A stretch of DNA of 32,000 nucleotides, taken from the NCBI RefSeq assembly GCF_008065095.1, contig NZ_CP042911.1:8430001-8462000 (forward strand), written 5' to 3'. Source of the stretch: Gemmata obscuriglobus. Lineage in GTDB: Bacteria; Planctomycetota; Planctomycetia; Gemmatales; Gemmataceae. A program made the translations under genes and the position numbers. Below, one piece after another: positions 18,941 to 31,867 of this stretch; position 1 is the stretch's first letter; each line of letters begins with the position of its first letter. The notes beneath the pieces are model-generated. The model saw only the letters and a list, made by a program, of their open reading frames with translations, searched no databases and was not told the DNA's origin.

Positions 18941-18946
18941 CGATAG

Positions 18947-19207
18947 TCAGGCATCCGGCCACTCCGGATCACTCGCTGGGCGCGCAGTATCTCTCGCATG
19001 TGATTTTGCACAGCGCCCCGTTGGAAGTCCAGGTGGTTCCGGCTTTTCCGTGAAAGAGCGGACGTACTCAGGCCATCCCGCCGGCACAGATTGCCGCGTA
19101 TTACGGCGGCGCGAAAGATAGATAGGGTCGAATCGCTGAAAATCACAGGCAGTAACGGCCGGACCGCTGGCATTAATGCGTATGTTGCGCGCAGTTGTAA
19201 TATTCAT
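18947..19207 (-). CDS. possible small ORF upstream of the methyltransferase
   Basis: A very strong SD 'GAGGAGAAGGAGGTG' sits immediately before the ATG at 19207, with short spacing. The 86-aa product has no recognisable motif. Confidence 0.3.
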   Translation of the reverse strand: MNITTARNIRINASGPAVTACDFQRFDPIYLSRRRNTRQSVPAGWPEYVRSFTEKPEPPGLPTGRCAKSHARDTARPASDPEWPDA

Positions 19208-19413
19208 CACCTCCTTCTCCTCGTGCCCAGTCCTCCAGTCTGACTTTTGTTCGAGAGGTAGGGTACGAGGGTGCCAGTCAATCGGTTCCCTGGTTCCCAC
19301 CTACCCCTTTGCGATTGGAGTCCCAGGTCGAATGAAACAGTCACGGTTACTGTCCTTGCGCATTCCTTCGGAATTGGGCGAGGTCTGGTAAACGAGCACC
19401 GGAACCAAGCAGA

Positions 19414-19554
19414 TCAGTGGGTGAACACGTCGAACATCCGGAGCGCCAACGGCCAGCGGAAGAACAGCGCGGCACCAACCAGCGCGATGCCGGCAGCGCC
19501 GGCCAGGTACGCGCCGGCCACCAGGTCGCGGGGGTAAAGGGGACGGTCGAACAC
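19414..19554 (-). CDS. possible 46-aa single-TM protein
   Basis: My translation from the GTG at 19554 is VFDRPLYPRDLVAGAYLAGAAGIALVGAALFFRWPLALRMFDVFTH. It is too short to appear in the ORF track. Confidence 0.3.
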   Translation of the reverse strand: MFDRPLYPRDLVAGAYLAGAAGIALVGAALFFRWPLALRMFDVFTH

Positions 19555-19592
19555 GGTGGAGGTCCTCGACGGGCGAAGAAGCTATCTGAGAG

Positions 19593-19614
19593 CCGGTGCG
19601 GGCGCCCGCACCGG
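19593..19614. repeat. 22-nt perfect palindrome ccggtgcgggcgcccgcaccgg
   Basis: It is self-complementary. It lies between the stop at 19630 and the small ORF, and may be a hairpin or attenuator. Confidence 0.5.
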
Positions 19615-19629
19615 GTTGAAGCGGACCAC

Positions 19630-20478
19630 TCAGCGCGGCGTCGGGCACCGACCGTTCGAGCAACTCGGCACTGCGCCTGCCGGAATCACGTACTGCTGCG
19701 GGAACGCGTACTGCGGCACGGTCGGGCACGATCCACCCGAGCAGCTCGGCGCCGTCGATGTCCTCGACCAGGCCGCCGGCGAGCTGCTCGGCACGGGCAC
19801 CGCCGCGGCACCCGGAATGCGCTCGTAAGCGCCCCGTGCGGTGCGCCGCAGCGGGAACCCCTCGCGGTCCCAGCATTCGGCTTCCACGGCCTTCGCGGGG
19901 GCCTTTTCCGGGTCCTTTGCCGGCGCCTCCTTCAGCGACTTCCCGCAGTGGGGGCAGGTCTCGCAGTCACACACGGGCGGGGTGGTCGCGCGGATCTCCC
20001 AACTCAGCGGCTTCGGCGCGGGCTTGTCCCCGGCGGGCTTCGGCGCGGGCCGGTCGATCTTCTTGGCCGCGCTGTCGATGGCGCTCTTGAGTGCCCCATC
20101 TTCGACCGGGCAGGCCATCACGGTATGAACGAACAACGTCCCATCGACGGGGTAGCCGACTACCGCGGCAGGACCGGTCACGTCGTCGAGCACGTCGGTG
20201 CGCGCCACCACCGCTCCCGGGGCCGGGTGCGGCTCTTTGCACCCCACGAACACCACCAGCGGCCGGGACTGCTCCGCGGCAACGCGGTAGCCGGTCGCGT
20301 AATCCTTCGGCGCTGCCAGCCGCGGGGCCGGTGCGATCACGGGCGCGGGGCGGCCCGCCAGAGCCAAGGCCACACGTGCCTTGCGGTCGCGGTCGGAGTC
20401 GGGTTCCGCTCCGAAAATGGAGCTGGTCAGGGTGATCAGAAGTGCGGCGCTGAGCGCCACTCGGCATACGGTTCGCAT
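19630..20478 (-). CDS. secreted Pro/Ala/Lys-rich protein with Cys clusters
   Basis: Signal peptide 'MRTVCRVALSAALLITLTSSIFGA'. Also 'CDCETCPHC' and C-terminal 'CSGGSC...CSNGRC'. GGAG lies 8 nt before the ATG. Confidence 0.65.
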   Translation of the reverse strand: MRTVCRVALSAALLITLTSSIFGAEPDSDRDRKARVALALAGRPAPVIAPAPRLAAPKDYATGYRVAAEQSRPLVVFVGCKEPHPAPGAVVARTDVLDDVTGPAAVVGYPVDGTLFVHTVMACPVEDGALKSAIDSAAKKIDRPAPKPAGDKPAPKPLSWEIRATTPPVCDCETCPHCGKSLKEAPAKDPEKAPAKAVEAECWDREGFPLRRTARGAYERIPGAAAVPVPSSSPAAWSRTSTAPSCSGGSCPTVPQYAFPQQYVIPAGAVPSCSNGRCPTPR

Positions 20479-20510
20479 GTCCAGGTCTCCACAGTGAGGA
20501 AGCGGACCTG

Positions 20511-20541
20511 AACCGGCGGGGTGGATCAGACCCCGCCGGTT
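20511..20541. repeat. 12-bp stem-loop between the peptidase gene and the next gene
   Basis: aaccggcggggt / accccgccggtt with a 7-nt loop. Confidence 0.5.
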
Positions 20542-20554
20542 CTTCGTTATGCAA

Positions 20555-21775
20555 TCACCACGCCAGCGCGAAAGTGTCTAGCGCCGGCGCGCGGTGTCGT
20601 TCTTGCGTGCGAATGATCCAGTCGATCGGGACTCGCCGCGCGGGAAACCCCTGCACATCGGAAAGGGCGAAGCTATCCCCCTGGCGGACCATCCGATCGG
20701 CCACAGCCTCATCGATCCAGAACGCGGCCCGGGGCTGATCCTCGGGCCACACCGGGCCGCCGTGGGCCGAATCGCCCCACGAGTTCAGGCAGAGCACACC
20801 GGGCCGGCTGCCATTGCGCCACGCGATGAAGCACATCGCGTGCGGCCAGGTGCCCCGCGGCGTGCAGAACCCCTGCGCATCCCGGGTGCCCACCGAGCCG
20901 TCGCGGTTGTCGAACCCCACGTCACTGCACACCACCACCGGATAGCCCTGAGCGATGGCGCGCTTCACGTCGGCGGCGCTCTTCACCAGCGCCGCGCCTT
21001 TTACCGGATGTTGTCGGGCAACCGCGCTCACCTCGGCAGGGATGCCGCGCGCGCCCCACTCGCGGGCGCGGGCCGGGCTGAACGTGGTCAGGTCCGTGGA
21101 ACCGATCCGCTCCATCGGCGCGATGCCGCCCACCCGACCCACGTACTCGCACGCCCACCGCCCGAGCGACCCATCCCCGCGGATCTGGCCCTTGCCCACG
21201 TCGATGCGTGAGCCGGCATAAACCACCTCGACGCTCACCGGCTTCCACTCAAAGCTCGCGCCCTGGGCGATGGCCGTTGCCTGGACCGTGTCGCACCCGT
21301 GCTTCGTGGCGGCCCCGACGCAACAGCCCACGCTGCCTTGGTTGACGTTGGGGTATGCGGTGTCAGGCAGTTTGGCGGCCTTGCGCACCGCGCGGAATAG
21401 GAACACGTCGTCATCGCCCAGCGCGGCCCGACCGGCGGGCGTCTGCTCGAAGTGCAGCGTTTTCGTCTGATCCAGGTTCCGCTCGATCACGTCCGGATCG
21501 CGAACCCACCCGGTCGGCTTCTCGAACTCATCGAGCCGCTCGCTTGGCGCGGGCGTCGGCACCTCAACCCGCTTCTCGATCTCGCGCACACGCTCGGGCG
21601 CGACCTGCACCCCGACGCCGGTGCCTAGCACCAGCGGGAGGATGATTTTCAAGGCCAGAATTGCCAGCCGGCGGAGCCGCTCGCGGCGCTCCGGGTTCAG
21701 TTGCGCGTCATTACTCATTCGGCTACCTCGTTGGGGTGGGGCGTGCTGGTACGTTTCGTGAGCGGGGCTGCTCAC
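20555..21775 (-). CDS. membrane-anchored papain-like (C1-type) cysteine peptidase
   Basis: The N-terminal TM is 'LAILALKIILPLVLGTGVGV'. The Gln/Cys motif is 'NQGSVGCCVGAA', the His is in 'WPHAMCFIAW' and the Asn is in 'LNSWGD'. The start is either a GTG at 21775, in a GTGA overlap with the upstream stop, or an ATG at 21718. Confidence 0.7.
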   Translation of the reverse strand: MSSPAHETYQHAPPQRGSRMSNDAQLNPERRERLRRLAILALKIILPLVLGTGVGVQVAPERVREIEKRVEVPTPAPSERLDEFEKPTGWVRDPDVIERNLDQTKTLHFEQTPAGRAALGDDDVFLFRAVRKAAKLPDTAYPNVNQGSVGCCVGAATKHGCDTVQATAIAQGASFEWKPVSVEVVYAGSRIDVGKGQIRGDGSLGRWACEYVGRVGGIAPMERIGSTDLTTFSPARAREWGARGIPAEVSAVARQHPVKGAALVKSAADVKRAIAQGYPVVVCSDVGFDNRDGSVGTRDAQGFCTPRGTWPHAMCFIAWRNGSRPGVLCLNSWGDSAHGGPVWPEDQPRAAFWIDEAVADRMVRQGDSFALSDVQGFPARRVPIDWIIRTQERHRAPALDTFALAW

Positions 21776-22386
21776 TTCGCGAGGTCTTCGAGGTGAGCGG
21801 CCAGCTTCCGGAACAAGTCGGCCGCGCCCGCCCGCTGGTCGCTGGTCAACTCCCCGTCGGTGGTGGGCAAGACCGCGGCCAGCTCGACGGCCACCACCTG
21901 GCGGACCTCGCGCAGCGCCGCCTCTCCGATCAGGGCCGCCGCCGCCTCCTTGAGCTTCAGCCGCAACGCGCCGGCGGTGCTCAGGCTCGAATCACCTGCG
22001 AGCTTGGCGGCAGCTCGGTACAGGGCCGCCAGGTCGCGCGCCCACTCCCCCTTCTCCGCGCTGGTGCCGGCACCCGCGTCGAGCGCGGTTTTCAGTTTGG
22101 AGCGGAGCGGATCGACCGGGGCGGGTGGCGTCGGGGGCGTGGGTGGGGTTGGGGGCTTCGGCGCGGGGCCGTCGATCCCGAGCTTTTCCAACAGCTCGCG
22201 CTGGCGCTTCAGCTCGGCCGCGATCGAGGCGAGCGCGGCCGACTCGGCTTTATCGAGTTCGGCGCGCTGCCGCCGGATGCCGCTGACTTGTTCGGCCAAC
22301 TGGTCGATCGACTGAGGGGTGGGGGGCTGGGCGAGTGCCCACGCGGGCGCGAGCAGCCCAAAGAGGGGCAGGAGACAGAATCGCAT
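21772..22386 (-). CDS. secreted coiled-coil protein with (TPP)n linker
   Basis: Signal peptide 'MRFCLLPLFGLLAPAWALAQ', followed by 'PKPPTPPTPPTPPAP'. Confidence 0.65.
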   Translation of the reverse strand: MRFCLLPLFGLLAPAWALAQPPTPQSIDQLAEQVSGIRRQRAELDKAESAALASIAAELKRQRELLEKLGIDGPAPKPPTPPTPPTPPAPVDPLRSKLKTALDAGAGTSAEKGEWARDLAALYRAAAKLAGDSSLSTAGALRLKLKEAAAALIGEAALREVRQVVAVELAAVLPTTDGELTSDQRAGAADLFRKLAAHLEDLAK

Positions 22387-22408
22387 CGTGGGGGCCTCCG
22401 TGGGTACC

Positions 22409-22423
22409 CCCGGCCGATGTCAC
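22409..22423 (-). promoter_or_regulatory. copy 1 of conserved motif GTGACATCGGCCGGG(GG)
   Basis: The minus strand reads GTGACATCGGCCGGGGG. It contains the TGA stop of the 22420-22764 gene. Its downstream end, including the two extra G's at 22408-22407, lies 20 nt upstream of the ATG at 22386. Confidence 0.6.
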
Positions 22424-22764
22424 AGGGGCTCGGACTCCTGCACGTGGGGCTGTAACCCACGAGCGGCGAGCCACGCGACCCAATGCGTCTCGCGGTCGTA
22501 CACAGCGGGATCGACCGTATACGCGGAACTGCCCGGGATCGCGGCCGTGAGCCCGCCGAGCGCCGCGACCGTCTCCGGGCCGCACGGGGCGCAGCAGCCG
22601 TAGGCGGTGAGGGCCACGTCCGACGGGCCGGGGAACGGCACGAGGGGTACGCTGAACGAGTAGGCGCCCGGGGCCGGGGGCGAGGTCAGGTAGGGCGATA
22701 CGGCCGCTTCCGCGGGGGCGCGGGCGGCGGCGGGGACGATGGCGATAACGTAGGCGGCTGGCAC
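22420..22764 (-). CDS. hypothetical phage protein
   Basis: 114-aa ORF. Its GTG at 22764 lies 2 nt after the LamG gene stop. Confidence 0.5.
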   Translation of the reverse strand: MPAAYVIAIVPAAARAPAEAAVSPYLTSPPAPGAYSFSVPLVPFPGPSDVALTAYGCCAPCGPETVAALGGLTAAIPGSSAYTVDPAVYDRETHWVAWLAARGLQPHVQESEPL

Positions 22765-22766
22765 CG

Positions 22767-23591
22767 CTACAGCCCTCCGAGATAGGCTTCAAGGGCCGAT
22801 TTGGTTCCGGCGCTGAGCGGATCGCCGAACAGAAGAGAGAAGCCCGGCATTCGGCCCAGGTAATTATTTAAACCCGCTTCCGCACCAATATTCAAAGATG
22901 TTGCCGGATAAGGTACTCCGGTTGACCAGTTGATCGTCGCTGGCGCGCCGCCGTCCTTTGACAGCCTGGTTTGCGAAATGCCCGCATCGAACTCAGCTAC
23001 AAGCGTGAATGGTGTTCCCGCCGTGAAAGTAGTTCCACTGGTTTGTGATAGTAACGTTCCCGCGCCGCCGTTTGAACCGTACAGGATCGCTATAAGCCCT
23101 ATCGAGTTGGGTGGAATTCTCACATGGTGACCACGGGTAATTCCGCCGACGCTGGAAGAGCCGTAAAGGCAAGCGGTAGAAGATGCTTTGACAGAGGCAT
23201 TCGCCCGCATCCCGACTGTCACAGAGCCACCCAACGGAACGGGTTCGTTCGCGTTAGCTATCAAGCAATCATCAACCCCGTCGAAACTCAGTGAGTACAG
23301 GTTGCCGCCCTCCGAATACAGCAACGGTCGAGCGGCGTCACTCGGGGCGACGAACTCGACGGCCCCTGACGGACCATAAGGCCACACGGCCACGCGCACC
23401 GGATCGAGGTGCGAGGACGCGCGAGTCGTCTTCGCCGCGTCCTGGTATAGCAGCCCGTTTGTACGCATCCACGCCGCGAGGACGGAATACGAGGCGCCGA
23501 ACGCGGCGAGCGGGTTCGTGAGCCCGTCCCGCCGCCGCAACTGATTGATTGCCAAGCCCACTCCCAAACGCATCGCGCGGCCCTCACGCAT
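22767..23591 (-). CDS. LamG/concanavalin-like domain protein (tail fibre / receptor-binding candidate)
   Basis: 'LYSLSFDGVDDCLIA' is the typical LamG-family opening motif. The composition is beta-rich and Gly/Ser/Thr-rich. GC is lower than in the flanks. Confidence 0.65.
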   Translation of the reverse strand: MREGRAMRLGVGLAINQLRRRDGLTNPLAAFGASYSVLAAWMRTNGLLYQDAAKTTRASSHLDPVRVAVWPYGPSGAVEFVAPSDAARPLLYSEGGNLYSLSFDGVDDCLIANANEPVPLGGSVTVGMRANASVKASSTACLYGSSSVGGITRGHHVRIPPNSIGLIAILYGSNGGAGTLLSQTSGTTFTAGTPFTLVAEFDAGISQTRLSKDGGAPATINWSTGVPYPATSLNIGAEAGLNNYLGRMPGFSLLFGDPLSAGTKSALEAYLGGL

Positions 23592-23826
23592 AGGCGACGA
23601 TGTCGCTGGCCGTTGTGCCCGTGGCGTTCACCCGGATGCCCTCGACGGGCAGCGGTTCGCCGTTCGAGCAGTTCTTGAACGTGACCGGCGCGCCGTCCTT
23701 TCGCACTACCACTACGTCGCCCGCGGTCCCGACCCGCAAGGACCGGAACGCGCGCTCGGCGTTCGCCGCGTTGCTCGGGGTGACCGCGAAGAAGTAGTCG
23801 CTCGGGTCGGACATGCTCGCGGGCAT
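23584..23826 (-). CDS. small hypothetical phage structural-module protein
   Basis: 80 aa, overlapping the next gene by 8 nt. Confidence 0.5.
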   Translation of the reverse strand: MPASMSDPSDYFFAVTPSNAANAERAFRSLRVGTAGDVVVVRKDGAPVTFKNCSNGEPLPVEGIRVNATGTTASDIVAYA

Positions 23827-23860
23827 CGGCGCGGCTCTCGTCGGGGTGCGGTCAGGCTCC

Positions 23861-23875
23861 CCCGGCCGATGTCAC
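23861..23875 (-). promoter_or_regulatory. copy 2 of conserved motif GTGACATCGGCCGGG(GG)
   Basis: The minus strand reads ACGTGACATCGGCCGGGGG. It starts 11 nt after the stop of the 823-aa gene and ends 32 nt before the ATG at 23826. Confidence 0.6.
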
Positions 23876-23886
23876 GTGAGACACAA

Positions 23887-26358
23887 TCACCCGGTCGGCG
23901 CGTCCGGCCACGGCCCCCACTTCGGCGCCTGCCCCTTCTTGACCAGCCCGCACGATTCGGTTGCGAGCGGCAGCTTCGCCTCCAGCGGGCACCCGCACGC
24001 GGCGCACGCGTCCAGCGCCCGCTCCTCGCACAGGGCGCACTCCGCCTGACGCGATTCGAGCACCTCCAGCGGCACCGTCCGGCGCCCGCCCGCCACGTGC
24101 CGCGCCATCGCCGCCGTGTAGTTCATCGCCTGGCGCCACAGCGCCGGCTTCTGTTTCACGTCCTCGGCGCACCGCGACAGAACCATCAGCCCGTGGTTGT
24201 TCCGGTCGCGGCGCGTCACCACCCAGCCCGGGTGGCGGTGGCAGAAGGTTCGCAGCGCGTGCAACACGCCCGGGGCGTCGGGCCGGTCGCCGCTCTCCCC
24301 GAACGTCTCGGTGCAGTGAACCACGATGTACTTGCCGACCCGCTCGCGGTGCCGCTCCAGCAGGGGCATGAGGGCGTCGGCGGTGTGCTCGGTGTCGATG
24401 AACAGCAGGTCCACCGGGGGCAGGTCCGCGGCCGCCGGGTCGGCGGTGCGGCCCTCGAACCGCGCGCCCAGCCAACCCCTCAACCGCGCCCATTGCGGCT
24501 TCGGCCGGGGGCACACGCTCACGAACGTGCCGTCCGCCGGCAGCCCGGCGACGAGCGCCGCGTCCGCCGGCTTCATCCACAGCGACAGCTCCGCGGCGCT
24601 CGAGCACTTCGCCGCCAGTTCCCGGAGCGTGCCAACGTGCTCGTGGAAGTCGGACGGCTTCGCGGCCGACGCCTCGGCCCACGCGGCGGGCGTCGGGTGC
24701 GCGTTCGCCTCGCACGCCGAGCACCCGGCCGGCTTCTGCGCCTTGAACTGCGTCACGTCCACGTTCGACACGGTGACCATCGGGCCGGGCCACCAGTGCC
24801 GCGCCTCGCCCCAGTGCGGGTGCCACAGGGACGCGCCGCGCGGCTCGTAGCACACGTCCCCGTGCGCCGTGAACCGGCCGGCGGTGTGGTTCACGTGGAC
24901 GCTCGGGGTGCCGCTCAGCCCGGAGGGGTCGGCGGGTTCCAGGCGCGCCCAGGCGGACCGGTCGGCGCCGTGGTCCGGTTCCAACACGACGGGCTTTCCG
25001 GACTTGGCCTCGGCTTCGGCGCGGGCCAGGTTCCCGAGGAACGTGCCCCAGCGCAAGCAGAGTTGGTGCAGGGGCTCGTGTCGCTCGCGCACCCGCTGCC
25101 AGCCGGTGCCGTTGAGCCCGATGTAATCGAGGTGCGACACCACTGGCGCATTCGGGTTGGCCGCCAGGGCATCCCCAAGGCGATCGAAGTACCCGGGCGG
25201 GTACAGCACGTCGTGCTCGCAGAACGCAACGGCGTCGAATGCCGAGCCGTCCGCGATCGCAGCCGCGACGGCCTGCCGGATCTGCGCCACGATGGTGGCG
25301 TGCGACCGCCTCGACTCCCCGCGGTGCGTTGTGAAGCGATCAAACGGGGCGCCCGGGATCTCCGCCCACCCGCATGCGCTCACGGTCACGTCGTGCCGAA
25401 GCGTCTGCTCCTGAGCCTGAGCGACGGACAGCGCGCTCCGCTGGAGCAGCGCCGGCGGGGGCGTGTTGTCCGAGTACCACACCGCCAGGATGCGTTGCCG
25501 CTTCGGCTCCGGGCGCGGGCCGCCGAACGGCTGCGCCGCTTCGGACCGCTCCACCAGCCGCCCCCAGGTGTCCGCGGACAGCCCCTTGCCGAAGTGCTCG
25601 CGGATCTGCGGGACCGCGTCGATTCCCAGCTCCCGGTGACCGACCAGCAGGTTCCACACGTGGTCCTCGGTGCGAAGCGGGTACGGGGGCGGCGGGTTGT
25701 TGTGCCAGCCGGACACGTCGCGGAACTTGTGCCGCCACCGCAGGGCCGGGAGGCAACGAGCCTTCCCGCCGCGCTGTCGCACGAGCTCATGGATGTACCC
25801 CTCCTCGCCCCCGAACCCGCTGAACAGTGGGTTGAACCCGGGCCACGCCGCGCATCGCATCAGCCACAGGCCGAGCCCCATCATGGGGATCTCTTTGGCC
25901 GTATTGCCGAGCAGGATGCTGTTATCCGTGTCCCACGTGCCCCACAGCCCGCCGCCCGGGTTCGGTCGCCAGTGTGTGCTCAGCCCCCGGCCGTCGTCGT
26001 ACACCAGCGGGCCGGAAATGATGTCCCGCGAGTCCGGATAACGTGCGATAAAGTCCAGCGCCGCCTGCACCGCGCCGGTCTCCAGGATCACGTGCGAATC
26101 GAGGCACATGGCCCACGGGGTGCGGGCGAACCGGAACACGGCGTCCCGGGGCTTGCTGGTGCCGGTGAGGTCCGGGCGGTGCAGGTACCGGCCGCCGACG
26201 GCCCGGGTGATCGCCTCCACCCGTGGGTCCCGCTCCTGGGTGTTGTCCACCACCAGGTATTCGACCTTCGGGTGGTTCGCGGCCAGGCCCGAGAGCACGA
26301 ACCACACGTGGTCCGGCTCGCCCCGGGTCGCCATGCCGATCGTCAGCGGGCTGCTCAT
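23887..26358 (-). CDS. multidomain glycosyltransferase (GT-A/GT2-like x2) fused to a class I SAM-methyltransferase-like domain and a Cys-rich tail
   Basis: N-terminus 'TIGMATRGEPDHVWFVLSGLAANHPKVEYLVVDNTQ...' is GT2-like. The second GT-A-like region carries 'FCEHDVLYPPGYF'. 'VDLLFIDTEHTADALMPLLERH...YIVVHC' matches the Methyltransf_24/TylF-like signature. The C-terminus reads 'CALCEERALDACAACGCP'. Confidence 0.75.
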   Translation of the reverse strand: MSSPLTIGMATRGEPDHVWFVLSGLAANHPKVEYLVVDNTQERDPRVEAITRAVGGRYLHRPDLTGTSKPRDAVFRFARTPWAMCLDSHVILETGAVQAALDFIARYPDSRDIISGPLVYDDGRGLSTHWRPNPGGGLWGTWDTDNSILLGNTAKEIPMMGLGLWLMRCAAWPGFNPLFSGFGGEEGYIHELVRQRGGKARCLPALRWRHKFRDVSGWHNNPPPPYPLRTEDHVWNLLVGHRELGIDAVPQIREHFGKGLSADTWGRLVERSEAAQPFGGPRPEPKRQRILAVWYSDNTPPPALLQRSALSVAQAQEQTLRHDVTVSACGWAEIPGAPFDRFTTHRGESRRSHATIVAQIRQAVAAAIADGSAFDAVAFCEHDVLYPPGYFDRLGDALAANPNAPVVSHLDYIGLNGTGWQRVRERHEPLHQLCLRWGTFLGNLARAEAEAKSGKPVVLEPDHGADRSAWARLEPADPSGLSGTPSVHVNHTAGRFTAHGDVCYEPRGASLWHPHWGEARHWWPGPMVTVSNVDVTQFKAQKPAGCSACEANAHPTPAAWAEASAAKPSDFHEHVGTLRELAAKCSSAAELSLWMKPADAALVAGLPADGTFVSVCPRPKPQWARLRGWLGARFEGRTADPAAADLPPVDLLFIDTEHTADALMPLLERHRERVGKYIVVHCTETFGESGDRPDAPGVLHALRTFCHRHPGWVVTRRDRNNHGLMVLSRCAEDVKQKPALWRQAMNYTAAMARHVAGGRRTVPLEVLESRQAECALCEERALDACAACGCPLEAKLPLATESCGLVKKGQAPKWGPWPDAPTG

Positions 26359-26386
26359 GTCGCTCGTCTCGTGAAGCTGGGGCCGG

Positions 26387-27973
26387 TCAAAACGGGCTGC
26401 TGGTGCTGAGCCCGGTGGTTACGGGCGGCGGCGGCGGCGGTGGCGGCGGTGTGGTGGTCGTGCCCGCGCCCGCGCAGGTGCCGTTGCACGACGCCAGGGA
26501 CATCGGCCCCGTGACCGTGCAGCCCGCGCACTGGTTAATCGGATCGAAGGAGCACAGCGCCGCGCCCCCGGGGCACTGGCAGCAGTAGTAGTCCACCGCC
26601 GGGCCGCCCGTCGTGGTGGTCGGCGCGGGTGTGGTGGTGCTGGTGGTCGTGGTCGGCGCCGCCGTCGTGCCGCCGCCGGGGCCGCAACCGTTGGCGCACG
26701 CGACCTCGGACGGGAACTGCGACCGCAGGGTCGGGGTCTCGTAATTCTCGCACGGGTGGCCCGGTTCGTTCGTGCAGACGAACCGGACGAAACCCTGGTA
26801 CCGGCACTGCCAGCAGTAGAACGGTTGCGCGGTGGTGGTCGTCGTGGTGGGCGGCCCGGCGGTGGTGGTCGGCGCGGCCGTGGTGGTGACGGGCAGCGGT
26901 ACGCACGCCCCGGCCGCCTGGGCGCAGGTGCCGGACGGGGCGCCGGGCGGCACCTGGCACGAGCACCCGCCGGCGTTCCCGCACGGCCGCACCACCTTGT
27001 CCCAGCTCGTGCCGCTGTCCGAGCCCCAGATGCAGTCGCCGCACCCGGCCGGGGACGCGGTGGTCACCGCGGCGCACGGGTCGGCGGCGCCGTGGACGTA
27101 GCAGGGGGTGGCGGCCTCGTGACCACAAGAGTTCCCGGGGGCGGCCGGCGCGTCGCAGGAGCAGTTGGGCACGCGCGAGCCGGCGCAGGTGTCGCCAATC
27201 TTCTCCCAGCGGTCGCTCTCGCCCGCCACCCCCGACACCCACACCCAGCGGCACCCACCGTTGCAGAACGACGGCGGCACCACGCACGGGGTGTGTGCCG
27301 GCGCACAGGACGAGCACGCCCCGGCCGGCGGCTGACAGCCGCAGTAGCCGGCGCACCCGTTGCGCGTCTGCACCCACCCGCGGACCGGGTGACAGAACCA
27401 GTCGCACCCCTCGGTGCAGTCCGACGGGGCCGGGCACGGGCCGCCCGTCGTGGTCGCGCCGGTGCAGTTTGGGGCTTTGGCGTCGGCGGCGAGGGCGCCA
27501 CACGCGGTGGTGGCGCAGGCGTCGGCGGCGGGGCACCACGTCGGGGCGAGGCAGTGGCAGTCGGTGGCGCAGGTCGAGGTGGTGCGGGTCCAGATTTTCG
27601 AGGAGGCGGAGTAGGTCCACTGGCACGCGCCGGCGCACGGGCCAGCGGTGGTGGTCGTGGTGGTGGCAGTGCCGCACCGACCGGCCCCGTTCGGCAGCGC
27701 GTACAGCTCCCATGTCAGCCCGGCGCTTCCGTCGGCCTGGCGACACAGCGCACAATCGCCCGCGGCGAAGGCGTTGCCCAGCACCGCGACGCCAGGATTT
27801 TCCGCGGTGCCGTACCGGCCGCCCACCAGCTCGACGAGCGCACCGGCGCCCTGATCCCACACCTCCACCCACTGGTAGCTCGGGGCGGCGGCCTCTGTGA
27901 TGCGGACGACGAAGAACGGCGAGCTGTAGGCCCGGGGGGGCGCGTTCGGTGGCGGTGTGCGGAATCGGGCCAT
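26387..27973 (-). CDS. modular Cys-rich repeat protein with poly-Thr/Pro linkers (tail-fibre / host-recognition candidate)
   Basis: It has four modules of the form C-x(2-3)-C-x-W-x(7-13)-W-x6-C-x(3-7)-C-x-C. It also has two '(F/Y)YC(W/C)QC' modules. Linkers include 'TATTTTTTAG', 'TTTAAPTTTAGPPTTTTTTAQ', 'GGTTAAPTTTTSTTTPAPTTTT' and 'TTTTPPPPPPPPP'. It follows the distal tail gene in operon order. Confidence 0.75.
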   Translation of the reverse strand: MARFRTPPPNAPPRAYSSPFFVVRITEAAAPSYQWVEVWDQGAGALVELVGGRYGTAENPGVAVLGNAFAAGDCALCRQADGSAGLTWELYALPNGAGRCGTATTTTTTAGPCAGACQWTYSASSKIWTRTTSTCATDCHCLAPTWCPAADACATTACGALAADAKAPNCTGATTTGGPCPAPSDCTEGCDWFCHPVRGWVQTRNGCAGYCGCQPPAGACSSCAPAHTPCVVPPSFCNGGCRWVWVSGVAGESDRWEKIGDTCAGSRVPNCSCDAPAAPGNSCGHEAATPCYVHGAADPCAAVTTASPAGCGDCIWGSDSGTSWDKVVRPCGNAGGCSCQVPPGAPSGTCAQAAGACVPLPVTTTAAPTTTAGPPTTTTTTAQPFYCWQCRYQGFVRFVCTNEPGHPCENYETPTLRSQFPSEVACANGCGPGGGTTAAPTTTTSTTTPAPTTTTGGPAVDYYCCQCPGGAALCSFDPINQCAGCTVTGPMSLASCNGTCAGAGTTTTPPPPPPPPPVTTGLSTSSPF

Positions 27974-27974
27974 G

Positions 27975-27989
27975 CCCGGCCGATGTCAC
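27975..27989 (-). promoter_or_regulatory. copy 3 of conserved motif GTGACATCGGCCGGG
   Basis: The minus strand reads ACGTGACATCGGCCGGGC followed directly by the ATG at 27973. Confidence 0.6.
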
Positions 27990-28076
27990 GTTGCGGCGGA
28001 GGTTGGCGCCCGTCCACTTCGCGCGCGAGCGGTGGGGCGGTTACCTTTGGTGGTTCGCCCCAACCGAGGCCCATTC

Positions 28077-28484
28077 ATGCGCGCACTGACTTTCCCGGCG
28101 ATTCTGCTCTGTGGCATCTTCTTGTTAGCGGCGGGCGTTCCGTCCACCGCGCAGGACAAGGACAAGAAGATGCCGAACCCGAACGTCGACAAGAATTACA
28201 CCGAAAAGGTGACGGTGCGGATCTTCGAGGCGGGCATTCGACCCAACGGAGCGTTGGTCGCGGAACCGGTGAAGGACGTGCGCGCGTTTCGTTACGAGAA
28301 GGATGGCGAGCTGTGGTTCTGCACGAAAGCTCACCCGGTCGCCGTGCCGAATCCGAAGACGGAAATCACGGACGAGAAGGGCAACGTCTACGTGGTTGAG
28401 AAGGTCGTCAACAACAACGACATCGGGCACAACCGGTCAAAGGTGAAGCCGAAAGCCAAGGACGCTACGCCGCCCCGACCTTAA
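28077..28484 (+). CDS. exported Lys-rich protein encoded opposite to the tail operon (moron)
   Basis: GAGG lies 7 nt before the ATG at 28077. Signal peptide 'MRALTFPAILLCGIFLLAAGVPSTAQ'. The 3' end overlaps the convergent tail gene by 20 nt. Confidence 0.65.
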   Translation: MRALTFPAILLCGIFLLAAGVPSTAQDKDKKMPNPNVDKNYTEKVTVRIFEAGIRPNGALVAEPVKDVRAFRYEKDGELWFCTKAHPVAVPNPKTEITDEKGNVYVVEKVVNNNDIGHNRSKVKPKAKDATPPRP

Positions 28485-29562
28485 ACAAGTCCTCGAACTC
28501 GCGGACCGGAAACAATGCACTTCCGTCGGTGATAAGTGTTTCGTCGGTGATGCGCGTGTTGAGCCCGGCCCGCTGGGTTTGGTAGTAGCCCGACACGTTG
28601 CCCGTGGTCGCGGGGTCGAAGAAGTAGAATCCGAGGTGCCCAAAGGGCACGGGCTTGTGAACGAAGGTGTAAGCCAAGTCCCACGAGTAGCCGAGCCCGG
28701 TCGGGTCGGGAAGGAGCGTCTCCTCGACGCCCACCAGTTGCAGGGTCAGCGACCAGTAGCCCAGGAAGTACGTCTTGTTCACGGCCCCGAAGAAGCCACG
28801 GCTACCCTCATTTCCGATGACGCGGTTGAAAAGTGGTTTTCCCGGCCCCCAGGCATCGAACGGCAGGCGGCGCCAAACGATGCGGAACTTGCGTTGCGGC
28901 TCGATGAACCCGATTCCGTAAGGGATCGGCACGCCGGCCGGCTTGCCCGTGCCCGTGTCGGTGCTGTACACCTGCCCCGACGCGCCGCCGGGAAGCGAGA
29001 TGTAAGAGGGCTCCCCCGACACCGCGCCGCCGGGCACGGCCCCGGGCTTGGTGGTGTATCGCTCCGTTTCCGACTCGGTATCTGCATCACTTTTGAAGCC
29101 GAACGGGCACATCTCGAACGTTGCTTTTAGCTCCGCGCGCCAAAACTCCGGCACGTGAACCCCAGCCTTGTACCCTGGGTTCACGTCCTCGATCGAGTCC
29201 GGGTCTTCTGGGTCTTCTGCTTCGACCGTGTTTTGCATGAACCGGAACGGCGCAATCTCGACTTTGGTACACGCCCAATTGTTGAACACCGGGTCCCGTT
29301 GCGGCATCAGCCGCGAGAGCTTGGTTACCCCGGTGTCGTCGTACAGCTTGCTGGCGCCAACCAAATGCACCGCGGCGTTGTACCGCTGATCCCAATCGCA
29401 CGAGAAGCGGCGGGTGCAGTACGAGCCGTCCGGCCCGAGCATCGTCGTGATGTGGTCGTGCTCGGCCTTGATCCCGCGGCGGCGCAGGTTCATGGCGATT
29501 ACTTCGGTGTCCGTGAACGCACGCAGAGAGCCGTTCGGGTTCGTGGGCAGCGTGACGGCCAT
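28465..29562 (-). CDS. phage tail protein immediately downstream of the tape measure (distal-tail-protein position)
   Basis: The ATG at 29562 lies 1 nt after the tape-measure TGA. 365 aa. The call is by synteny only. Confidence 0.6.
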   Translation of the reverse strand: MAVTLPTNPNGSLRAFTDTEVIAMNLRRRGIKAEHDHITTMLGPDGSYCTRRFSCDWDQRYNAAVHLVGASKLYDDTGVTKLSRLMPQRDPVFNNWACTKVEIAPFRFMQNTVEAEDPEDPDSIEDVNPGYKAGVHVPEFWRAELKATFEMCPFGFKSDADTESETERYTTKPGAVPGGAVSGEPSYISLPGGASGQVYSTDTGTGKPAGVPIPYGIGFIEPQRKFRIVWRRLPFDAWGPGKPLFNRVIGNEGSRGFFGAVNKTYFLGYWSLTLQLVGVEETLLPDPTGLGYSWDLAYTFVHKPVPFGHLGFYFFDPATTGNVSGYYQTQRAGLNTRITDETLITDGSALFPVREFEDLFKVGAA

Positions 29563-29563
29563 A

Positions 29564-30748
29564 TCAGAAGCTCCCCCCCTCGAACGCGCCACCGCCACCG
29601 GGCCGCGCCCCAAAATCGCCTTCCCCGGGCAGCCACACCCCGCCGCCGGCCGTGAGCGCGTCCACGGCGCGCATGAGCGTGGTCGCGATCGACTGTTGCA
29701 CGCGGAGCATCTTTTGCTCGATGGGATCGCCGTTTAGCGCGGCCATCTGCACGCTTTTCCCGACCCCTTCCAGCCCGGAAATGGACGCCTTCGGACCGAC
29801 GCTCAGCGCGAACGACTTCGCCACGTCGCGGAGCGCGCTCAGCACCATCGCTTGCGGGCTGCTGGGATCGGCGCCCGCGCCGCCCCGCTCGCCCTCGGCG
29901 TAGCGCAGGTCCGCGAGCCGCCGGGCCTCGTTCTCCCGGTCAACGTTCCGGGTCGTGTACCAGGGCGCGTTCGGGTCTTTCCAGTCGGCGTCTGTGAGCT
30001 TCCTGAGTTCCTCGTCGAACAGCCGGAAGTAAGCTTGGGTGTTACGTTCCGGGTCGGACACCGTGTCCCACCCGAGCCCAAACCATCTCCGATCGCCCTC
30101 CGTCGCGCGCGGGTCGGTGATGCGCTCGCCGTTGCGGTCGCGGTTGCCGAAGTTGTCCTCGACCCACTTTGCCAGATCCGCGAGCGCCGACGCCACGGTC
30201 TGCACGGCCCCGATGAACGTCACGAGCACGGGAATGCCGAGCCCGATGATCGTCGTCAGGAACCCTTCCAGGCCCGGCCCGATGGCGTTGGTGAGTACGG
30301 CCGCCGCGGACGTGAACGCGGTGGCGAGTAGCACCGTCGCCGGGAGCAGCACGGGCGCGACGGTCGCGGCGAATAACTGCACCGACTTGCCGAGGGTGCC
30401 AAACCCGCTGGTGACCGACCCGAGCGCGGCCCCCAGGACCGCCATCGGCCCGGCGACAGCAGCGAACTTGGCGAGCACGGGCGCAAACATGCTCCCGAGG
30501 CGACTGGGGGCAGGGTCAGCCGGGCCGGCCGGGGTAGGCTGTGGCGGTGCGCCGCCGGCGACACCGCTGACCGGAAGCGGTTTTGGGCCGACGACGATTA
30601 CGGGTTGCGGCCGGTCGTGGATCGGCAACCAGCCGCCGTCGTTGGTATCGCGCTCGGCCTGCTGGTTGGCGAAGATAATCGCCTGGGGCAGCCCGGAGAT
30701 TGCCCCGGCGAGGAGTTGCAGCGCGGCGGCAAGTGCGGGGTCGTTCAC
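29564..30748 (-). CDS. tail tape measure protein (short)
   Basis: It follows the G/GT chaperone pair. It has long Ala/Gly/Val hydrophobic stretches, such as 'FAPVLAKFAAVAGPMAVLGAALGSV' and 'FLTTIIGLGIPVLVTFIGAVQTV'. The GTG at 30748 is in a GTGA overlap with the upstream stop. Confidence 0.7.
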   Translation of the reverse strand: MNDPALAAALQLLAGAISGLPQAIIFANQQAERDTNDGGWLPIHDRPQPVIVVGPKPLPVSGVAGGAPPQPTPAGPADPAPSRLGSMFAPVLAKFAAVAGPMAVLGAALGSVTSGFGTLGKSVQLFAATVAPVLLPATVLLATAFTSAAAVLTNAIGPGLEGFLTTIIGLGIPVLVTFIGAVQTVASALADLAKWVEDNFGNRDRNGERITDPRATEGDRRWFGLGWDTVSDPERNTQAYFRLFDEELRKLTDADWKDPNAPWYTTRNVDRENEARRLADLRYAEGERGGAGADPSSPQAMVLSALRDVAKSFALSVGPKASISGLEGVGKSVQMAALNGDPIEQKMLRVQQSIATTLMRAVDALTAGGGVWLPGEGDFGARPGGGGAFEGGSF

Positions 30749-31466
30749 TGTTGCACCCTTTTCTCGCGTTCCTCACGCGCGGCCCGCTTGGCTTGCTCCT
30801 CGGCCCACCCCCGCGCGATGCGCTCGGGGTCCGTGATGCCGAGGTAAAAGCACCGTGTTGCGAAGAGGGCCATCTCGCCCGGCTTGCGCGGCCCCGCTGG
30901 CAGCGCCAGCTCCGGCCGTCCCTCGCCGTCGCGGTGGTGCGCAAACAGCGCTGTTAGCTGGTCGTCGGTGAGCCCGGCGAGGTAGTCGATTCGGTGGTTG
31001 AAGGGCGGGTTGGCGAGCTGGACGAGAAGAAGTCGCTTGGCAATCCGAGCGTCACCCGGACTGCCTCTAAGACTTTTGGGTCGTTGGTCGCCCTGCTCAC
31101 CATGAGTGCGGCGATTTTCTTGGCCTCGAGTTCGACGAGCCGCTCGGCCAGCTCGAACGTGAGCCCCTGATCGCGGCACATGATCGTCAGCAACTTGGCC
31201 AGCCCGAGCGGTGTCATCAACCGCTTGACGACGATCTCTCCGCCCCATTCATACACGCCTGCGGCAACGTCCTGCCCGTGAAAGCGCTCGGCCCGCTCGC
31301 GGGCGGCGTCGTCCTGGTAGCGGCGGCGCGCAATGCCATCGTAGGCGAGTTGCTCGAGCCACACTTGGTACTCGCCCTGATGCGCATTTGTGGGCTTGCC
31401 GATCCGGTAGGTTTTCCCGTCGAGAACGAACTCGGTCGGGGCGTTGACGAAGTCTGCGAGTGTCAC
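30745..31466 (-). CDS. tail assembly chaperone GT-like fusion made by -1 programmed frameshift at 31080-31074
   Basis: The -1 frame (ORF 30745-31248) is open across the slippery site. It ends in a GTGA overlap with the tape-measure start. The junction reads ...ATNDPK|SLRGSPGDARIAKRLL... Confidence 0.6.
30954..31466 (-). CDS. tail assembly chaperone (G-like, zero-frame product)
   Basis: 170-aa ORF between the tube and tape measure genes. Its GTG at 31466 overlaps the tube gene TGA. Confidence 0.7.
   Translation of the reverse strand: MTLADFVNAPTEFVLDGKTYRIGKPTNAHQGEYQVWLEQLAYDGIARRRYQDDAARERAERFHGQDVAAGVYEWGGEIVVKRLMTPLGLAKLLTIMCRDQGLTFELAERLVELEAKKIAALMVSRATNDPKVLEAVRVTLGLPSDFFSSSSPTRPSTTESTTSPGSPTTS
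31074..31080 (-). other. -1 ribosomal frameshift slippery heptamer C CCA AAA
   Basis: In the G frame the minus strand reads GAC CCA AAA GTC. The form is X XXY YYZ, and re-pairing as CCC AAA keeps both tRNAs matched. Confidence 0.6.
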
Positions 31467-31864
31467 CCGATGTTCTCCGTGAACGCGCCCTGGCTCTTAA
31501 CCGTGCAGTCGTACATGACGCGGCCCTTGACTTCCCCGCCGTACTTGGCCCGAAACACCTTAGCGTTTGGGAAGTGGTACGCCGGCACCACGTCGTTGAG
31601 GTTCGTGTACAACTTCAAATCTTGGAGAGCGGTGCCGGTCGCCACGCCGCTGAAGTCGCCGTCCACAATGTCGACGACGAACGTGATGTTGACTGTTGCC
31701 CCGATGACCCCACCTTCCGGCCAGTCGTAACCTTCGTCCTCGCCGGTAGTCGCGTCCAATTCCTGTAGCTCTGGGCCCACGCTCCACATCTGTGCCCCGG
31801 GCACCAGCACGGGACTCATGCCACCCATCTTGACGGCAATGTGACTGCCTGAAATTGGGGGCAT
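31463..31864 (-). CDS. major tail tube protein (by position)
   Basis: 133-aa ORF directly upstream of the chaperone pair. GGAGGAG precedes the ATG at 31864. Confidence 0.6.
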   Translation of the reverse strand: MPPISGSHIAVKMGGMSPVLVPGAQMWSVGPELQELDATTGEDEGYDWPEGGVIGATVNITFVVDIVDGDFSGVATGTALQDLKLYTNLNDVVPAYHFPNAKVFRAKYGGEVKGRVMYDCTVKSQGAFTENIG

Positions 31865-31867
31865 GTC

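What the first reader, a model, noticed from the sequence alone, without database searches (positions are those of the whole stretch)
22409..27989. Conserved 15-17-nt motif GTGACATCGGCCGGG(GG) at three junctions of the prophage late operon, all in the same orientation
**Seen in the sequence.** Exact 15-mer copies lie at 22409-22423, 23861-23875 and 27975-27989. Read on the minus strand, they match the transcription direction of the operon. Copies 1 and 2 extend by GG. Copies 2 and 3 extend 5' by AC. The copies occupy three of the few non-coding gaps in an otherwise overlap-packed operon. Copy 1 contains the stop codon of the upstream gene, and copy 3 is separated from the next gene's ATG by a single C.

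**Inference.** Three exact 15-mers in 32 kb are not expected by chance. The placement near stop and start codons, with one polarity, resembles the 'stoperator' repressor sites of some actinobacteriophages. It could instead be a phage-specific late promoter, activator site or RNA-processing site.
Basis: partly seen in the sequence, partly recalled or inferred. Interest (0 to 1): 0.65.

Follow-up and report, generated by a model that had tools for sequence, protein, structure and literature searches.

The report
Invariant 15-nt punctuation motif in Gemmata phages
A 15-base sequence sits, always in the same direction, in the tiny gaps between late genes of a Gemmata obscuriglobus prophage and is letter-for-letter identical in a distantly related phage, so it is a real control signal of this phage lineage, although sequence alone cannot say whether it starts or blocks late transcription.

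Summary
GTGACATCGGCCGGG occurs exactly three times in the window, all on the minus strand, against 0 expected by chance. No copy has 1-2 mismatches. A fourth exact copy lies about 1.2 kb beyond the window end.

The window is Gemmata obscuriglobus. A metagenomic phage contig, L167, shares tail proteins at only 39-54% identity yet carries five more exact, co-oriented, intergenic copies, one of them syntenic with window copy 3. All 9 copies are invariant at 15 of 15 positions, and flanking conservation stops at the motif edges.

In 5 of the 7 copies that follow a co-directional gene, the motif's TGA is that gene's stop codon. The distance to the next start codon is 1-72 nt. Three genes start 1-3 nt after the motif and have no Shine-Dalgarno sequence.

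The motif is absent from 48 other related loci (492 kb). These include a second prophage of the same genome, which has its own oriented motif.

The motif is therefore a lineage-specific, strand-specific cis-element under strong selection. My best guess is a self-contained late promoter (about 0.38). A stoperator-like roadblock is close behind (about 0.27). It is a new variant of a known kind and moderately interesting.

The parts
27975..27989 (-). Motif copy 3 (ACGTGACATCGGCCGGG, then C, then ATG). It lies in the divergent gap between the opposite-strand secreted-protein gene and the 528-aa gene. It is syntenic with L167 copy 2239.
23861..23875 (-). Motif copy 2. It lies 12 nt after the stop of the 823-aa glycosyltransferase-domain gene and 34 nt before the ATG of the 80-aa tail-fibre-family gene.
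22409..22423 (-). Motif copy 1. Its TGA is the stop codon of the 114-aa gene. It lies 22 nt (containing a GGAGG SD) before the ATG of the 204-aa secreted protein that opens the lysis-like cassette. Homology with the paralogous prophage L163 ends exactly here.
28005..28027 (-). Upstream block GCGCGCGAAGTGGACGGGCGCC, at -38..-16 relative to copy 3. It is conserved at the same distance upstream of L167 copy 2239. It may be the promoter or operator of the divergent secreted-protein gene.
   Evidence: 82% identity over 55 nt of intergenic DNA, including the motif
26387..27973 (-). 528-aa Cys/Thr-rich protein gene. The N-terminal ~95 aa are conserved in L167 and L168. The ATG lies 1 nt after copy 3. 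There is no SD and no upstream co-directional cistron.
28077..28484 (+). Opposite-strand secreted 135-aa protein. It is the conserved partner of the 365-aa tail-module gene in four elements, and it interrupts the late operon just upstream of copy 3.
21772..22386 (-). 204-aa secreted coiled-coil protein. It is the first gene after copy 1 and the first gene of the widely conserved 204/387/282-aa lysis-like cassette.
23584..23826 (-). 80-aa protein (phrog_12296, 'tail fiber protein'). It is the first gene after copy 2.
19593..19614 (.). Perfect palindrome CCGGTGCGGGCGCCCGCACCGG, 19 nt after the last lysis-cassette gene. The same 18-nt core follows two motif copies in L167 and two gene ends in L163. 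It is a terminator-like or operator-like companion element.

Best explanation
The 15-mer is the recognition site of a phage-lineage-specific transcription component. It divides the late (tail, fibre, lysis) region into units.

The mechanism I commit to is a self-contained late promoter. It would be read by a phage-encoded polymerase or sigma-like factor rather than by the host sigma-70 holoenzyme. Transcription would start at or within a few bases of the motif's 3' end (the GGG).

Each copy sits flush against the end of the preceding gene because the genome is tightly packed. What follows the motif is only what the next gene needs. That is either a 17-72-nt leader with a GGAG-type ribosome site or nothing at all. 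In the second case the mRNA is (nearly) leaderless and the ATG follows after 1-3 nt.

Shown: the existence of the motif, its invariance, its polarity, its placement, its lineage specificity, and the absence of SD sequences at the abutting genes.

Inferred: that the site acts on DNA, that it initiates rather than blocks transcription, where the start site lies, and that the factor is phage-encoded.
For: 1. There are nine copies in two phages with 39-54% protein identity. All 15 positions are invariant and no flanking position is conserved.
2. All 9 copies are co-oriented with the flanking genes, and all lie in the ~4.4% of DNA that is non-coding.
3. Three genes start 1-3 nt after the motif and lack the GGAG/GAGG site that nearly all other genes of the operon have. 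One of them, the window 528-aa gene, has no upstream co-directional ORF, so re-initiation cannot explain it.
4. Copy 3 and its syntenic L167 copy lie where transcription must resume after an opposite-strand gene.
5. Lineage specificity is clear. There are zero copies in 48 related loci (492 kb) and in 19 kb of non-late window DNA.
6. A second prophage of the same host genome (L163) has a different oriented motif at three junctions. That motif is followed by -10-like hexamers placed for leaderless starts. So phage-specific multi-promoter late operons and leaderless first genes appear to occur in this host.
7. The motif is restricted to the structural/lysis part of the element. It is absent from intergenic gaps among the adjacent co-directional small genes.
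Against: - The motif has no AT-rich melting segment and no TANNNT hexamer. No -10 or -35 partner sits at a fixed distance.
- No polymerase, sigma or activator gene is visible in the ~34 kb available.
- In L167 two copies are followed after 3 and 28 nt by a palindrome that elsewhere sits at gene-cluster ends like a terminator. Promoter followed by terminator is an odd order.
- The L167 homologue of the 528-aa gene has its own well-placed TACCCT hexamer 45 nt downstream of the motif, so there the motif is not the core promoter of that gene.
- L167 has three copies within 1 kb around 56-92-aa genes, which is dense for promoters.
- No transcript data were available.
Confidence: 0.38

Rival explanations
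1. Stoperator-type roadblock. A phage repressor binds the asymmetric 15-mer as an oriented monomer in the lysogen and stops RNA polymerase that strays into the late and lysis genes. The window prophage and the L167 phage would then be homoimmune. The L163 prophage, with a different motif, would be heteroimmune.
For: The geometry matches the published description of L5/Bxb1 stoperators: asymmetric 13-mers, in short intergenic spaces, in one orientation relative to transcription, shared within an immunity group and different between groups (PMC9283540, PMC3029335).

Observations here that fit:
- 9 of 9 copies are co-oriented, and 5 of 7 overlap the upstream stop codon.
- Copies cluster just before the lysis genes: window copy 1, and L167 8237, 8924 and 9217.
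- Two L167 copies are followed by a terminator-like palindrome, and one by an independent -10-like hexamer.
- GC-rich composition is no obstacle for a binding site.
Against: - No repressor candidate and no operator copy at an early promoter is visible. There are no copies in either orientation in the ~9 kb of small genes next to the late region.
- Only 4-5 copies per visible 12-15 kb are seen, and the genome-wide count is unknown.
- Nine of nine exact copies is stricter than stoperator sets, which tolerate 1-2 deviations.
- It does not explain how the SD-less 528-aa gene that abuts copy 3 is translated.
- The sequence is unrelated to GGTGGMTGTCAAG or GTTACGWDTCAAG.
Confidence: 0.27
2. RNA-level stop-start signal. 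The motif acts in the mRNA. One version is a processing site that creates module-sized mRNAs, some with an AUG at the new 5' end. The other is a coupling element in which the CAUCGG(C) part pairs with the (G)CCGAUG around the next start codon, so that only a ribosome terminating at the motif's UGA opens it.
For: - The motif is strictly on the sense strand.
- In 5 of 7 cases the upstream ORF ends at the motif's UGA, and in a sixth it ends 1 nt before the motif.
- GCCGATG, a 7-nt complement of CATCGGC that includes the start codon, occurs at two motif-led genes. A CCGGTG start context occurs at a third, and CGATG at a fourth. Against this, 6-nt or longer complements occur at 2 of ~31 other starts. 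This is a post hoc count.
- Invariance at every position is what base-pairing to a fixed RNA would give.
Against: - Folding of the four contexts is not better than shuffles (z from -1.1 to +0.75) and gives no common structure.
- Pairing is impossible for the three copies with the ATG 1-3 nt away, and is irrelevant for the two copies with no upstream cistron.
- Pairing would not constrain GTGA or CCGGG.
- CGATG start contexts are common in this genome anyway.
- There is no Rfam match.
- No known RNase reads 15 nt of unstructured sequence.
Confidence: 0.15
3. Recombination linker or cassette boundary. The identical 15-17-mers are short homology or target sites at which gene modules are swapped, inserted or deleted. 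An example is the high-GC 528+823-aa segment flanked by direct ACGTGACATCGGCCGGG repeats.
For: - The copies lie at module junctions: tail, fibre-like plus glycosyltransferase, fibre module, lysis cassette.
- Homology with L163 stops exactly at copy 1.
- Copies 2 and 3 form 17-nt direct repeats around a 4.1-kb segment with 70-74% GC, against 62-69% in the neighbouring DNA.
Against: - The same modules in 40+ other phages carry no such sequence at their borders.
- The upstream border of the shared 268/114-aa module does not coincide with copy 2.
- Strict single orientation relative to genes, and conservation over deep divergence with no flanking similarity, point to a signal that is read rather than a scar.
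- No recombinase gene is seen nearby.
Confidence: 0.07
4. Generic host repeat or chance. The 15-mer is an ordinary Gemmata genomic repeat with no phage-specific role.
For: The complete 9-Mb host genome could not be scanned. Single chance copies of the 15-mer do occur in unrelated viral contigs.
Against: - Zero exact matches are expected in the window, and three were found.
- With a pre-specified motif, there are five copies in L167 against 0.14 expected at 2 or fewer mismatches.
- There are no copies in 19 kb of non-late window DNA, in 13.6 kb of another G. obscuriglobus locus, or in 42 kb from two other Gemmata assemblies of the same integrative element (L165, L166).
- All 116 IMG/VR hits are single copies.
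Confidence: 0.02

Closest known systems
Stoperators of Cluster A mycobacteriophages (L5 gp71, Bxb1 gp69 repressor sites)
   Same: Both are short asymmetric sites (13 versus 15 bp) in short intergenic spaces, in one orientation relative to transcription. Both often touch stop or start codons. Both are shared by some phages and replaced by a different consensus in others that infect the same host (PMC9283540, PMC3029335).
   Different: The sequence is unrelated. Only 4-5 copies are seen per visible 12-15 kb, all in the late region. No copy is seen at a promoter and no repressor is identified. The 9 of 9 exact copies are stricter than stoperator sets. The host phylum (Planctomycetota) and phage type are unrelated.
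Promoter sets of phage-encoded single-subunit RNA polymerases (T7/T3/SP6 class; the 15-bp Syn5 promoter). From my own knowledge, not checked against a paper here.
   Same: Both comprise a handful of near-identical, self-contained, co-oriented sites in the small gaps between late genes. Both need no separate -35/-10 pair. The GGG at the 3' end resembles the preferred initiating bases of such polymerases.
   Different: There is no AT-rich unwinding segment. No polymerase gene is seen in the available sequence. The phage has siphovirus- or Mu-like modules. Identity of the motif between phages this diverged would be unusual for co-evolving polymerase-promoter pairs.
Start-associated sequences (SAS/ESAS) of Cluster K mycobacteriophages
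   Same: Both are asymmetric 13-15-mers in one orientation, conserved across diverged phages in front of unrelated genes, sometimes containing the upstream stop codon, absent from the host, and of unknown function (PMC3203893).
   Different: SAS lie 3-7 bp from the start codon, contain the AGGAG ribosome-site core, and are confined to the non-structural arm. Here the distance to the start is 1-72 nt, there is no SD core, and the copies are in the structural/lysis region.
Late promoters of phage Mu and P2 (four activator-dependent promoters per late region). From my own knowledge.
   Same: Both show several regularly spaced, co-oriented control sites that split a late region into units. A Mu-like prophage of the same genome (L163) shows such an arrangement with its own motif.
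   Different: Those sites are activator boxes upstream of recognisable -10 elements. Here no -10 partner exists at a fixed distance.

Membership tests
Stoperator/operator system (Cluster A mycobacteriophage type) | Asymmetric (non-palindromic) site of about 13 bp | tested here: met
   The 15-nt motif is not self-complementary, and its boundaries are sharp in 9 copies.
Stoperator/operator system (Cluster A mycobacteriophage type) | One orientation relative to the direction of transcription, in short intergenic spaces | tested here: met
   All 9 copies are co-oriented with the flanking genes, and all lie in the ~4.4% of DNA that is non-coding.
Stoperator/operator system (Cluster A mycobacteriophage type) | More than 20 sites spread over the whole phage genome, including a copy overlapping the early lytic promoter | not testable with these tools
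   Only ~34 kb of the element is readable. The host genome is masked in the genome collection, and the look-ups did not return its long contigs. In the visible part there are 4 copies, all in the late region, and none in 9 kb of adjacent small genes.
Stoperator/operator system (Cluster A mycobacteriophage type) | Cognate repressor with an HTH plus a second DNA-binding domain | tested here: inconclusive
   No HTH or repressor family was detected in any window ORF tested. The immunity region may lie outside the window.
Stoperator/operator system (Cluster A mycobacteriophage type) | Sequence related to the known consensus sequences (GGTGGMTGTCAAG, GTTACGWDTCAAG) | tested here: not met
   GTGACATCGGCCGGG shares no alignment with them beyond a TGACA/TGTCA pentamer.
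Single-subunit RNA polymerase promoter set | Several near-identical, self-contained, co-oriented sites between genes | tested here: met
Single-subunit RNA polymerase promoter set | AT-rich segment just upstream of the start site, and a phage-encoded polymerase gene | tested here: not met
   The 3' two-thirds of the motif is CGGCCGGG. No polymerase domain was found in the window or L167 proteins. The unseen part of the prophage could not be tested.
Host sigma-70-type promoter | A -35 and a -10 hexamer with 16-18-nt spacing | tested here: not met
   The scan found 0 promoter-like sites in 18500-32000. No TANNNT lies at a fixed distance downstream of GTGACA in the nine aligned copies.
Start-associated sequence (Cluster K) | Located 3-7 bp upstream of the start codon and containing the SD core | tested here: not met
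   The distances are 1, 1, 3, 17, 22, 34, 44, 57 and 72 nt, and the motif contains no GGAG.
Intrinsic terminator or structured RNA family | Stable hairpin (with a U tract), or a match to an Rfam model | tested here: not met
   Fold z-scores range from -1.1 to +0.75. No terminator-like site lies at any copy. There are no Rfam hits in the window or L167.

The most novel reading that the evidence does not exclude
The motif is neither a classical promoter nor an operator. It is a 'stop-start punctuation' signal read on the sense strand, either as nascent RNA or as the non-template DNA strand (as with ops/RfaH). It would end expression of one module at its built-in UGA. It would also load a dedicated factor that allows SD-independent or leaderless expression of the next module. 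The signal is repeated at each junction of the late operon in a planctomycete phage lineage.
Probability: 0.1. Interest if true: 0.7.

Novelty: new variant of a known kind. Interest (0 to 1): 0.45.

Why it matters
Almost nothing is known about gene regulation in phages of Planctomycetota, and I am not aware of any cis-regulatory element described for them (own knowledge; the paper searches here found none). This 15-mer is an unusually clean handle. It is invariant, strand-specific, lineage-specific and present at every major junction of the late region.

It can be used directly to pull down its binding factor, to map transcription units after induction, and to recognise related prophages. If it is a self-contained promoter, it would give a compact orthogonal expression signal for Gemmata genetics. 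If it is a roadblock, it would extend stoperator-type silencing, so far known from actinobacteriophages, to an unrelated phylum.

The companion observations suggest that phage-specific punctuation of late operons is general in this host. These are a second prophage with its own oriented motif and leaderless-type starts, and an 18-nt palindrome shared by three phages.

Tried and rejected
- **Collection scan with the 15-mer.** The IMG/VR scan was swamped by single chance hits (116 or more). The two 17-mer variants that cover all nine 3' contexts gave only 7 single hits, so no IMG/VR relative carries the motif.
- **Reaching further upstream in the prophage.** This failed. Look-ups with window proteins returned only short Logan contigs, and a 30-aa fragment was too short to search.
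- **Paralogue P0002.** It was not retrievable. Its cluster mate P0132 gave L163.
- **Motif travelling with the downstream module.** Rejected: upstream regions of about 20 homologues of the 204-aa gene lack it.
- **Motif travelling with the upstream module.** Rejected: the 114-aa homologues in L163, L121 and L125 are followed by other sequence.
- **Sigma-70, sigma-54 and ECF readings of the motif.** Checked by eye and with the promoter scan. No partner element lies at a fixed distance.
- **Complementarity to the 3' end of 16S rRNA.** Compared only against the generic bacterial sequence from memory. It did not look convincing, and no Gemmata rRNA was available.
- **Other repeats.** The repeated 14-mer CCCGCGCCGAAGCC is a coding (PAPKP) repeat. 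The L117 repeat is a coding paralogue repeat.
- **L167 129-aa protein versus the 823-aa C-terminus.** Tested as a possible second syntenic anchor. No homology.
- **Literature.** Searches for the sequence, and for Gemmata prophages or promoters, found nothing relevant.


Full report
**1. The observation**

GTGACATCGGCCGGG occurs exactly at 22409-22423, 23861-23875 and 27975-27989, always on the minus strand. Dinucleotide-preserving shuffles give 0.00 exact matches. No copy has one or two mismatches. The three 3-mismatch hits lie on the other strand inside genes and match the chance expectation of 2.9.

- Copies 1 and 2 continue with GG.
- Copies 2 and 3 are preceded by AC.
- The TGA of copy 1 is the stop codon of the 114-aa ORF 22420-22764.
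- Copy 3 is followed by C and then the ATG of the 528-aa ORF.

An alignment of the flanks shows that similarity stops abruptly at the motif edges.

**2. Context**

The window is from Gemmata obscuriglobus. Window proteins are identical to proteins of the draft contig ABGO01000043.1 and of a 9.03-Mb genome.

A GC3 frame analysis and the public gene calls give a tightly packed minus-strand operon. In the direction of transcription it reads:
- small tail-region genes, a 394-aa protein with a weak tape-measure hit, and a 365-aa protein;
- an opposite-strand secreted 135-aa protein (28077-28484);
- copy 3, then the 528-aa Cys/Thr-rich protein and an 823-aa protein with a GT2 domain;
- copy 2, then an 80-aa protein (phrog_12296 'tail fiber protein', 2e-17), a 268-aa protein and a 114-aa protein;
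- copy 1, then a 204-aa secreted protein, a 387-aa protein and a 282-aa protein;
- a type IIG restriction-modification gene in a low-GC island.

Positions 1-9700 carry host genes, including homoserine dehydrogenase and a PnkP-type RNA repair enzyme.

The draft contig extends past the window and shows a fourth exact, co-oriented copy between a 93-aa and a 74-aa gene (L118 323-337, about window 33237-33251). All four copies lie in the 628 of 13,944 nt (4.5%) of the late region that are non-coding.

One larger gap without the motif (window 30749-30953) is most simply read as the frameshift extension of a tail chaperone. That reading is my inference from gene order.

**3. Is it conserved elsewhere?**

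Collection scans with the 15-mer alone are uninformative, because they return single chance hits. I therefore fetched loci through proteins.

*Fibre module.* The 268-aa protein has two paralogues in the same genome. One lies in a Mu-like prophage, L163 (Mu F, Mu gpT and tail tube genes). L163 shares the 268/114-aa module at 86% nucleotide identity up to the stop codon. There the similarity ends, and the window has the motif while L163 has other sequence.

L163 instead carries its own oriented motif, (CTTTC)ATCCGGGCAACCC, at three junctions. Each copy is followed after 7 nt by TAACTT, CACAGT or CACACT. In two cases an ATG follows 6-7 nt later, which is a promoter-like layout for leaderless mRNAs.

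*Lysis-like cassette.* The 204/387/282-aa cassette has more than 290 homologues. I read 35 loci containing it. None has the motif at 2 or fewer mismatches, apart from one chance-level 2-mismatch hit. The regions upstream of the 204-aa homologues share nothing with the window.

*Tail module.* Homologues of the 365-aa protein gave the decisive result. L167 is a 14-kb Logan contig whose 394-, 365- and 528-aa homologues are 39%, 54% and 52% identical to the window proteins. It carries five exact copies at 2239, 5318, 8237, 8924 and 9217, all in gene orientation and all intergenic. Shuffles give 0.14 matches at 2 or fewer mismatches.

Copy 2239 is syntenic with window copy 3. It lies after the 365-aa gene and its conserved opposite-strand partner, and before the 528-aa homologue. 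The two share a further upstream block, GCGCGCGAAGTGRACGGGCGCC, at the same distance.

Two other elements with the same 365-aa/partner pair lack the motif: L165/L166 from Gemmata sp. SH-PL17 and a second assembly, and L168.

In total, 48 of the 52 protein-derived loci (492 kb) have no copy. The four with copies are the prophage itself (three loci) and L167.

**4. Anatomy over nine copies**

- All 15 positions are invariant, and no flanking position is conserved.
- Seven copies follow a co-directional gene. In five of them the motif's TGA is that gene's stop codon. In one the stop lies 1 nt upstream, and in one 12 nt upstream.
- The distance to the next start codon is 1, 1, 3, 17, 22, 34, 44, 57 and 72 nt.
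- Most longer spacers carry a GGAG/GAGG-type ribosome site, as do almost all other genes of the operon; the site is weak in the 34-nt spacer and absent from the 57-nt spacer.
- The three genes that abut the motif have no ribosome site. One of them, the window 528-aa gene, has no upstream co-directional ORF that could feed re-initiation.
- In L167, three copies cluster in front of small membrane proteins and the peptidase cassette. In the window, copy 1 opens the homologous cassette.
- Two L167 copies are followed after 3 and 28 nt by the perfect palindrome GGTGCGGGCGCCCGCACC. The same palindrome lies 19 nt after the last lysis-cassette gene in the window (19593-19614) and after two genes in L163.

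**5. What it is not**

- It is not a sigma-70 promoter. No partner hexamer lies at a fixed distance, and the scan found 0 sites.
- It is not an intrinsic terminator or a structured RNA. Fold z-scores range from -1.1 to +0.75, there are no terminator hits at the copies, and there are no Rfam matches.
- It is not coding.
- It is not a generic Gemmata repeat, as far as 19 kb of the window, 13.6 kb of L163 and 42 kb from two other Gemmata assemblies of one integrative element (L165, L166) can show.
- It does not belong to either neighbouring gene module.

**6. Mechanism**

Invariance over this much divergence, strict polarity and lineage restriction show a cis-element read by a lineage-specific factor. 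That factor is probably phage-encoded, because another prophage in the same cell uses a different motif.

I rank a self-contained late promoter first, at about 0.38. It would start transcription at the 3' end of the motif. The reasons are:
- the SD-less genes abutting the motif, one of which cannot be explained by coupling;
- the position where transcription must resume after an opposite-strand gene;
- the restriction to the late region;
- the L163 precedent for multiple phage-specific promoters with leaderless first genes.

Against this reading:
- the motif is GC-rich;
- no polymerase or sigma gene is visible;
- in L167 the order is motif and then palindrome;
- an independent TACCCT hexamer lies in front of the L167 fibre gene.

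A stoperator-like roadblock is a close second, at about 0.27. It fits the geometry described for L5 and Bxb1 and the clustering before lysis genes. However, its defining features (genome-wide spread, a promoter copy, a repressor) could not be tested, and it leaves translation of the 528-aa gene unexplained.

An RNA-level stop-start or processing signal gets about 0.15. It rests on the stop-codon overlap and on a post hoc excess of (G)CCGATG start contexts complementary to CATCGG(C).

A recombination linker gets about 0.07, and chance or a host repeat about 0.02.

**7. Comparison and novelty**

The closest described things are Cluster A stoperators, Cluster K start-associated sequences and the promoter sets of phage RNA polymerases. 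The motif shares their general logic but meets the full definition of none (see the membership table).

It is a new variant of a known kind of phage feature, in a phylum whose phages are essentially unstudied. I set interest at 0.45. It is a clean, testable handle, but it is not conceptually surprising unless the stop-start reading proves true.

Noticed in passing
window 19593-19614; L163 6756 and 11664; L167 2257 and 5361: The perfect palindrome (CC)GGTGCGGGCGCCCGCACC(GG) is letter-identical in three different Gemmata-type phage elements. It usually lies just after a stop codon at the end of a gene cluster, and in L167 it lies 3 and 28 nt downstream of the 15-mer. It could be a shared terminator hairpin or a dimeric-protein operator.
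   Followed up: partly
L163 2199, 4987, 11691 (ABGO01000124.1, Mu-like prophage of the same genome): This second prophage has its own oriented motif, (CTTTC)ATCCGGGCAACCC. Each copy is followed after 7 nt by a -10-like hexamer (TAACTT, CACAGT or CACACT). In two cases an ATG follows 6-7 nt later, which suggests phage-specific promoters that produce leaderless mRNAs.
   Followed up: partly
window 28077-28484 (+) with 28465-29562 (-); L165, L167, L168: The 365-aa tail-module gene is always followed by an opposite-strand gene for a small secreted protein (108-135 aa, conserved EKKxPxxxKDESYTEKVxVR motif). The pair occurs in four otherwise different elements, including an integrase/primase element of Gemmata sp. 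SH-PL17. It may be a lysogeny-expressed exclusion factor.
   Followed up: partly
window 19630-22386 (-): The three-gene cassette (204-aa secreted coiled-coil protein, 387-aa protein with invariant Cys/His residues, 282-aa secreted protein) has more than 290 homologues at 50-76% identity in metagenomes. It has no Pfam or PHROG annotation. It is probably the lysis module of Gemmataceae phages.
   Followed up: partly
window 20510-20542: A 13-bp-stem inverted repeat (GAACCGGCGGGGT...ACCCCGCCGGTTC) lies in the 76-nt gap between the 387-aa and 282-aa genes.
   Followed up: no
L121 (11 copies) and L125 (7 copies): The palindromic 11-mer CACGA[AT]TCGTG is strongly over-represented in two related metagenomic phage contigs, both inside and between genes. 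It could be a restriction/modification target or a host-specific word.
   Followed up: no
window 26387-27973 (-): The 528-aa protein has an unusual composition (GC2 of 0.73), with Thr runs, about 40 Cys and a C-terminal poly-Pro stretch. Only its N-terminal ~95 aa are conserved in L167 and L168, as expected for a fibre with a conserved anchor and a variable distal part.
   Followed up: partly
window 15083-18940 (-) and 14340-14950 (+): A 50-55% GC island carries a 1037-aa MmeI/Eco57I-type restriction-modification enzyme, a 246-aa partner and an opposite-strand two-gene pair.
   Followed up: partly
window 4068-6722 (+): This host gene encodes a PnkP-type RNA repair enzyme with kinase, phosphatase and ligase domains (PNKP_ligase, 5e-161).
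   Followed up: no
window 20009, 20036, 22154, 25012: The 14-mer GGCTTCGGCGCGGG (CCCGCGCCGAAGCC on the coding strand) occurs four times in one orientation. It encodes PAPKP in three cases and lies in another frame in the fourth. It is a coding or codon-usage repeat, not a signal.
   Followed up: yes
L165 5505-5650: Iteron-like tandem and inverted repeats of GGTCACCCTGACCACCCTGACC lie at the 3' end of the primase-helicase gene of the Gemmata sp. SH-PL17 integrative element. This is a probable replication origin.
   Followed up: no
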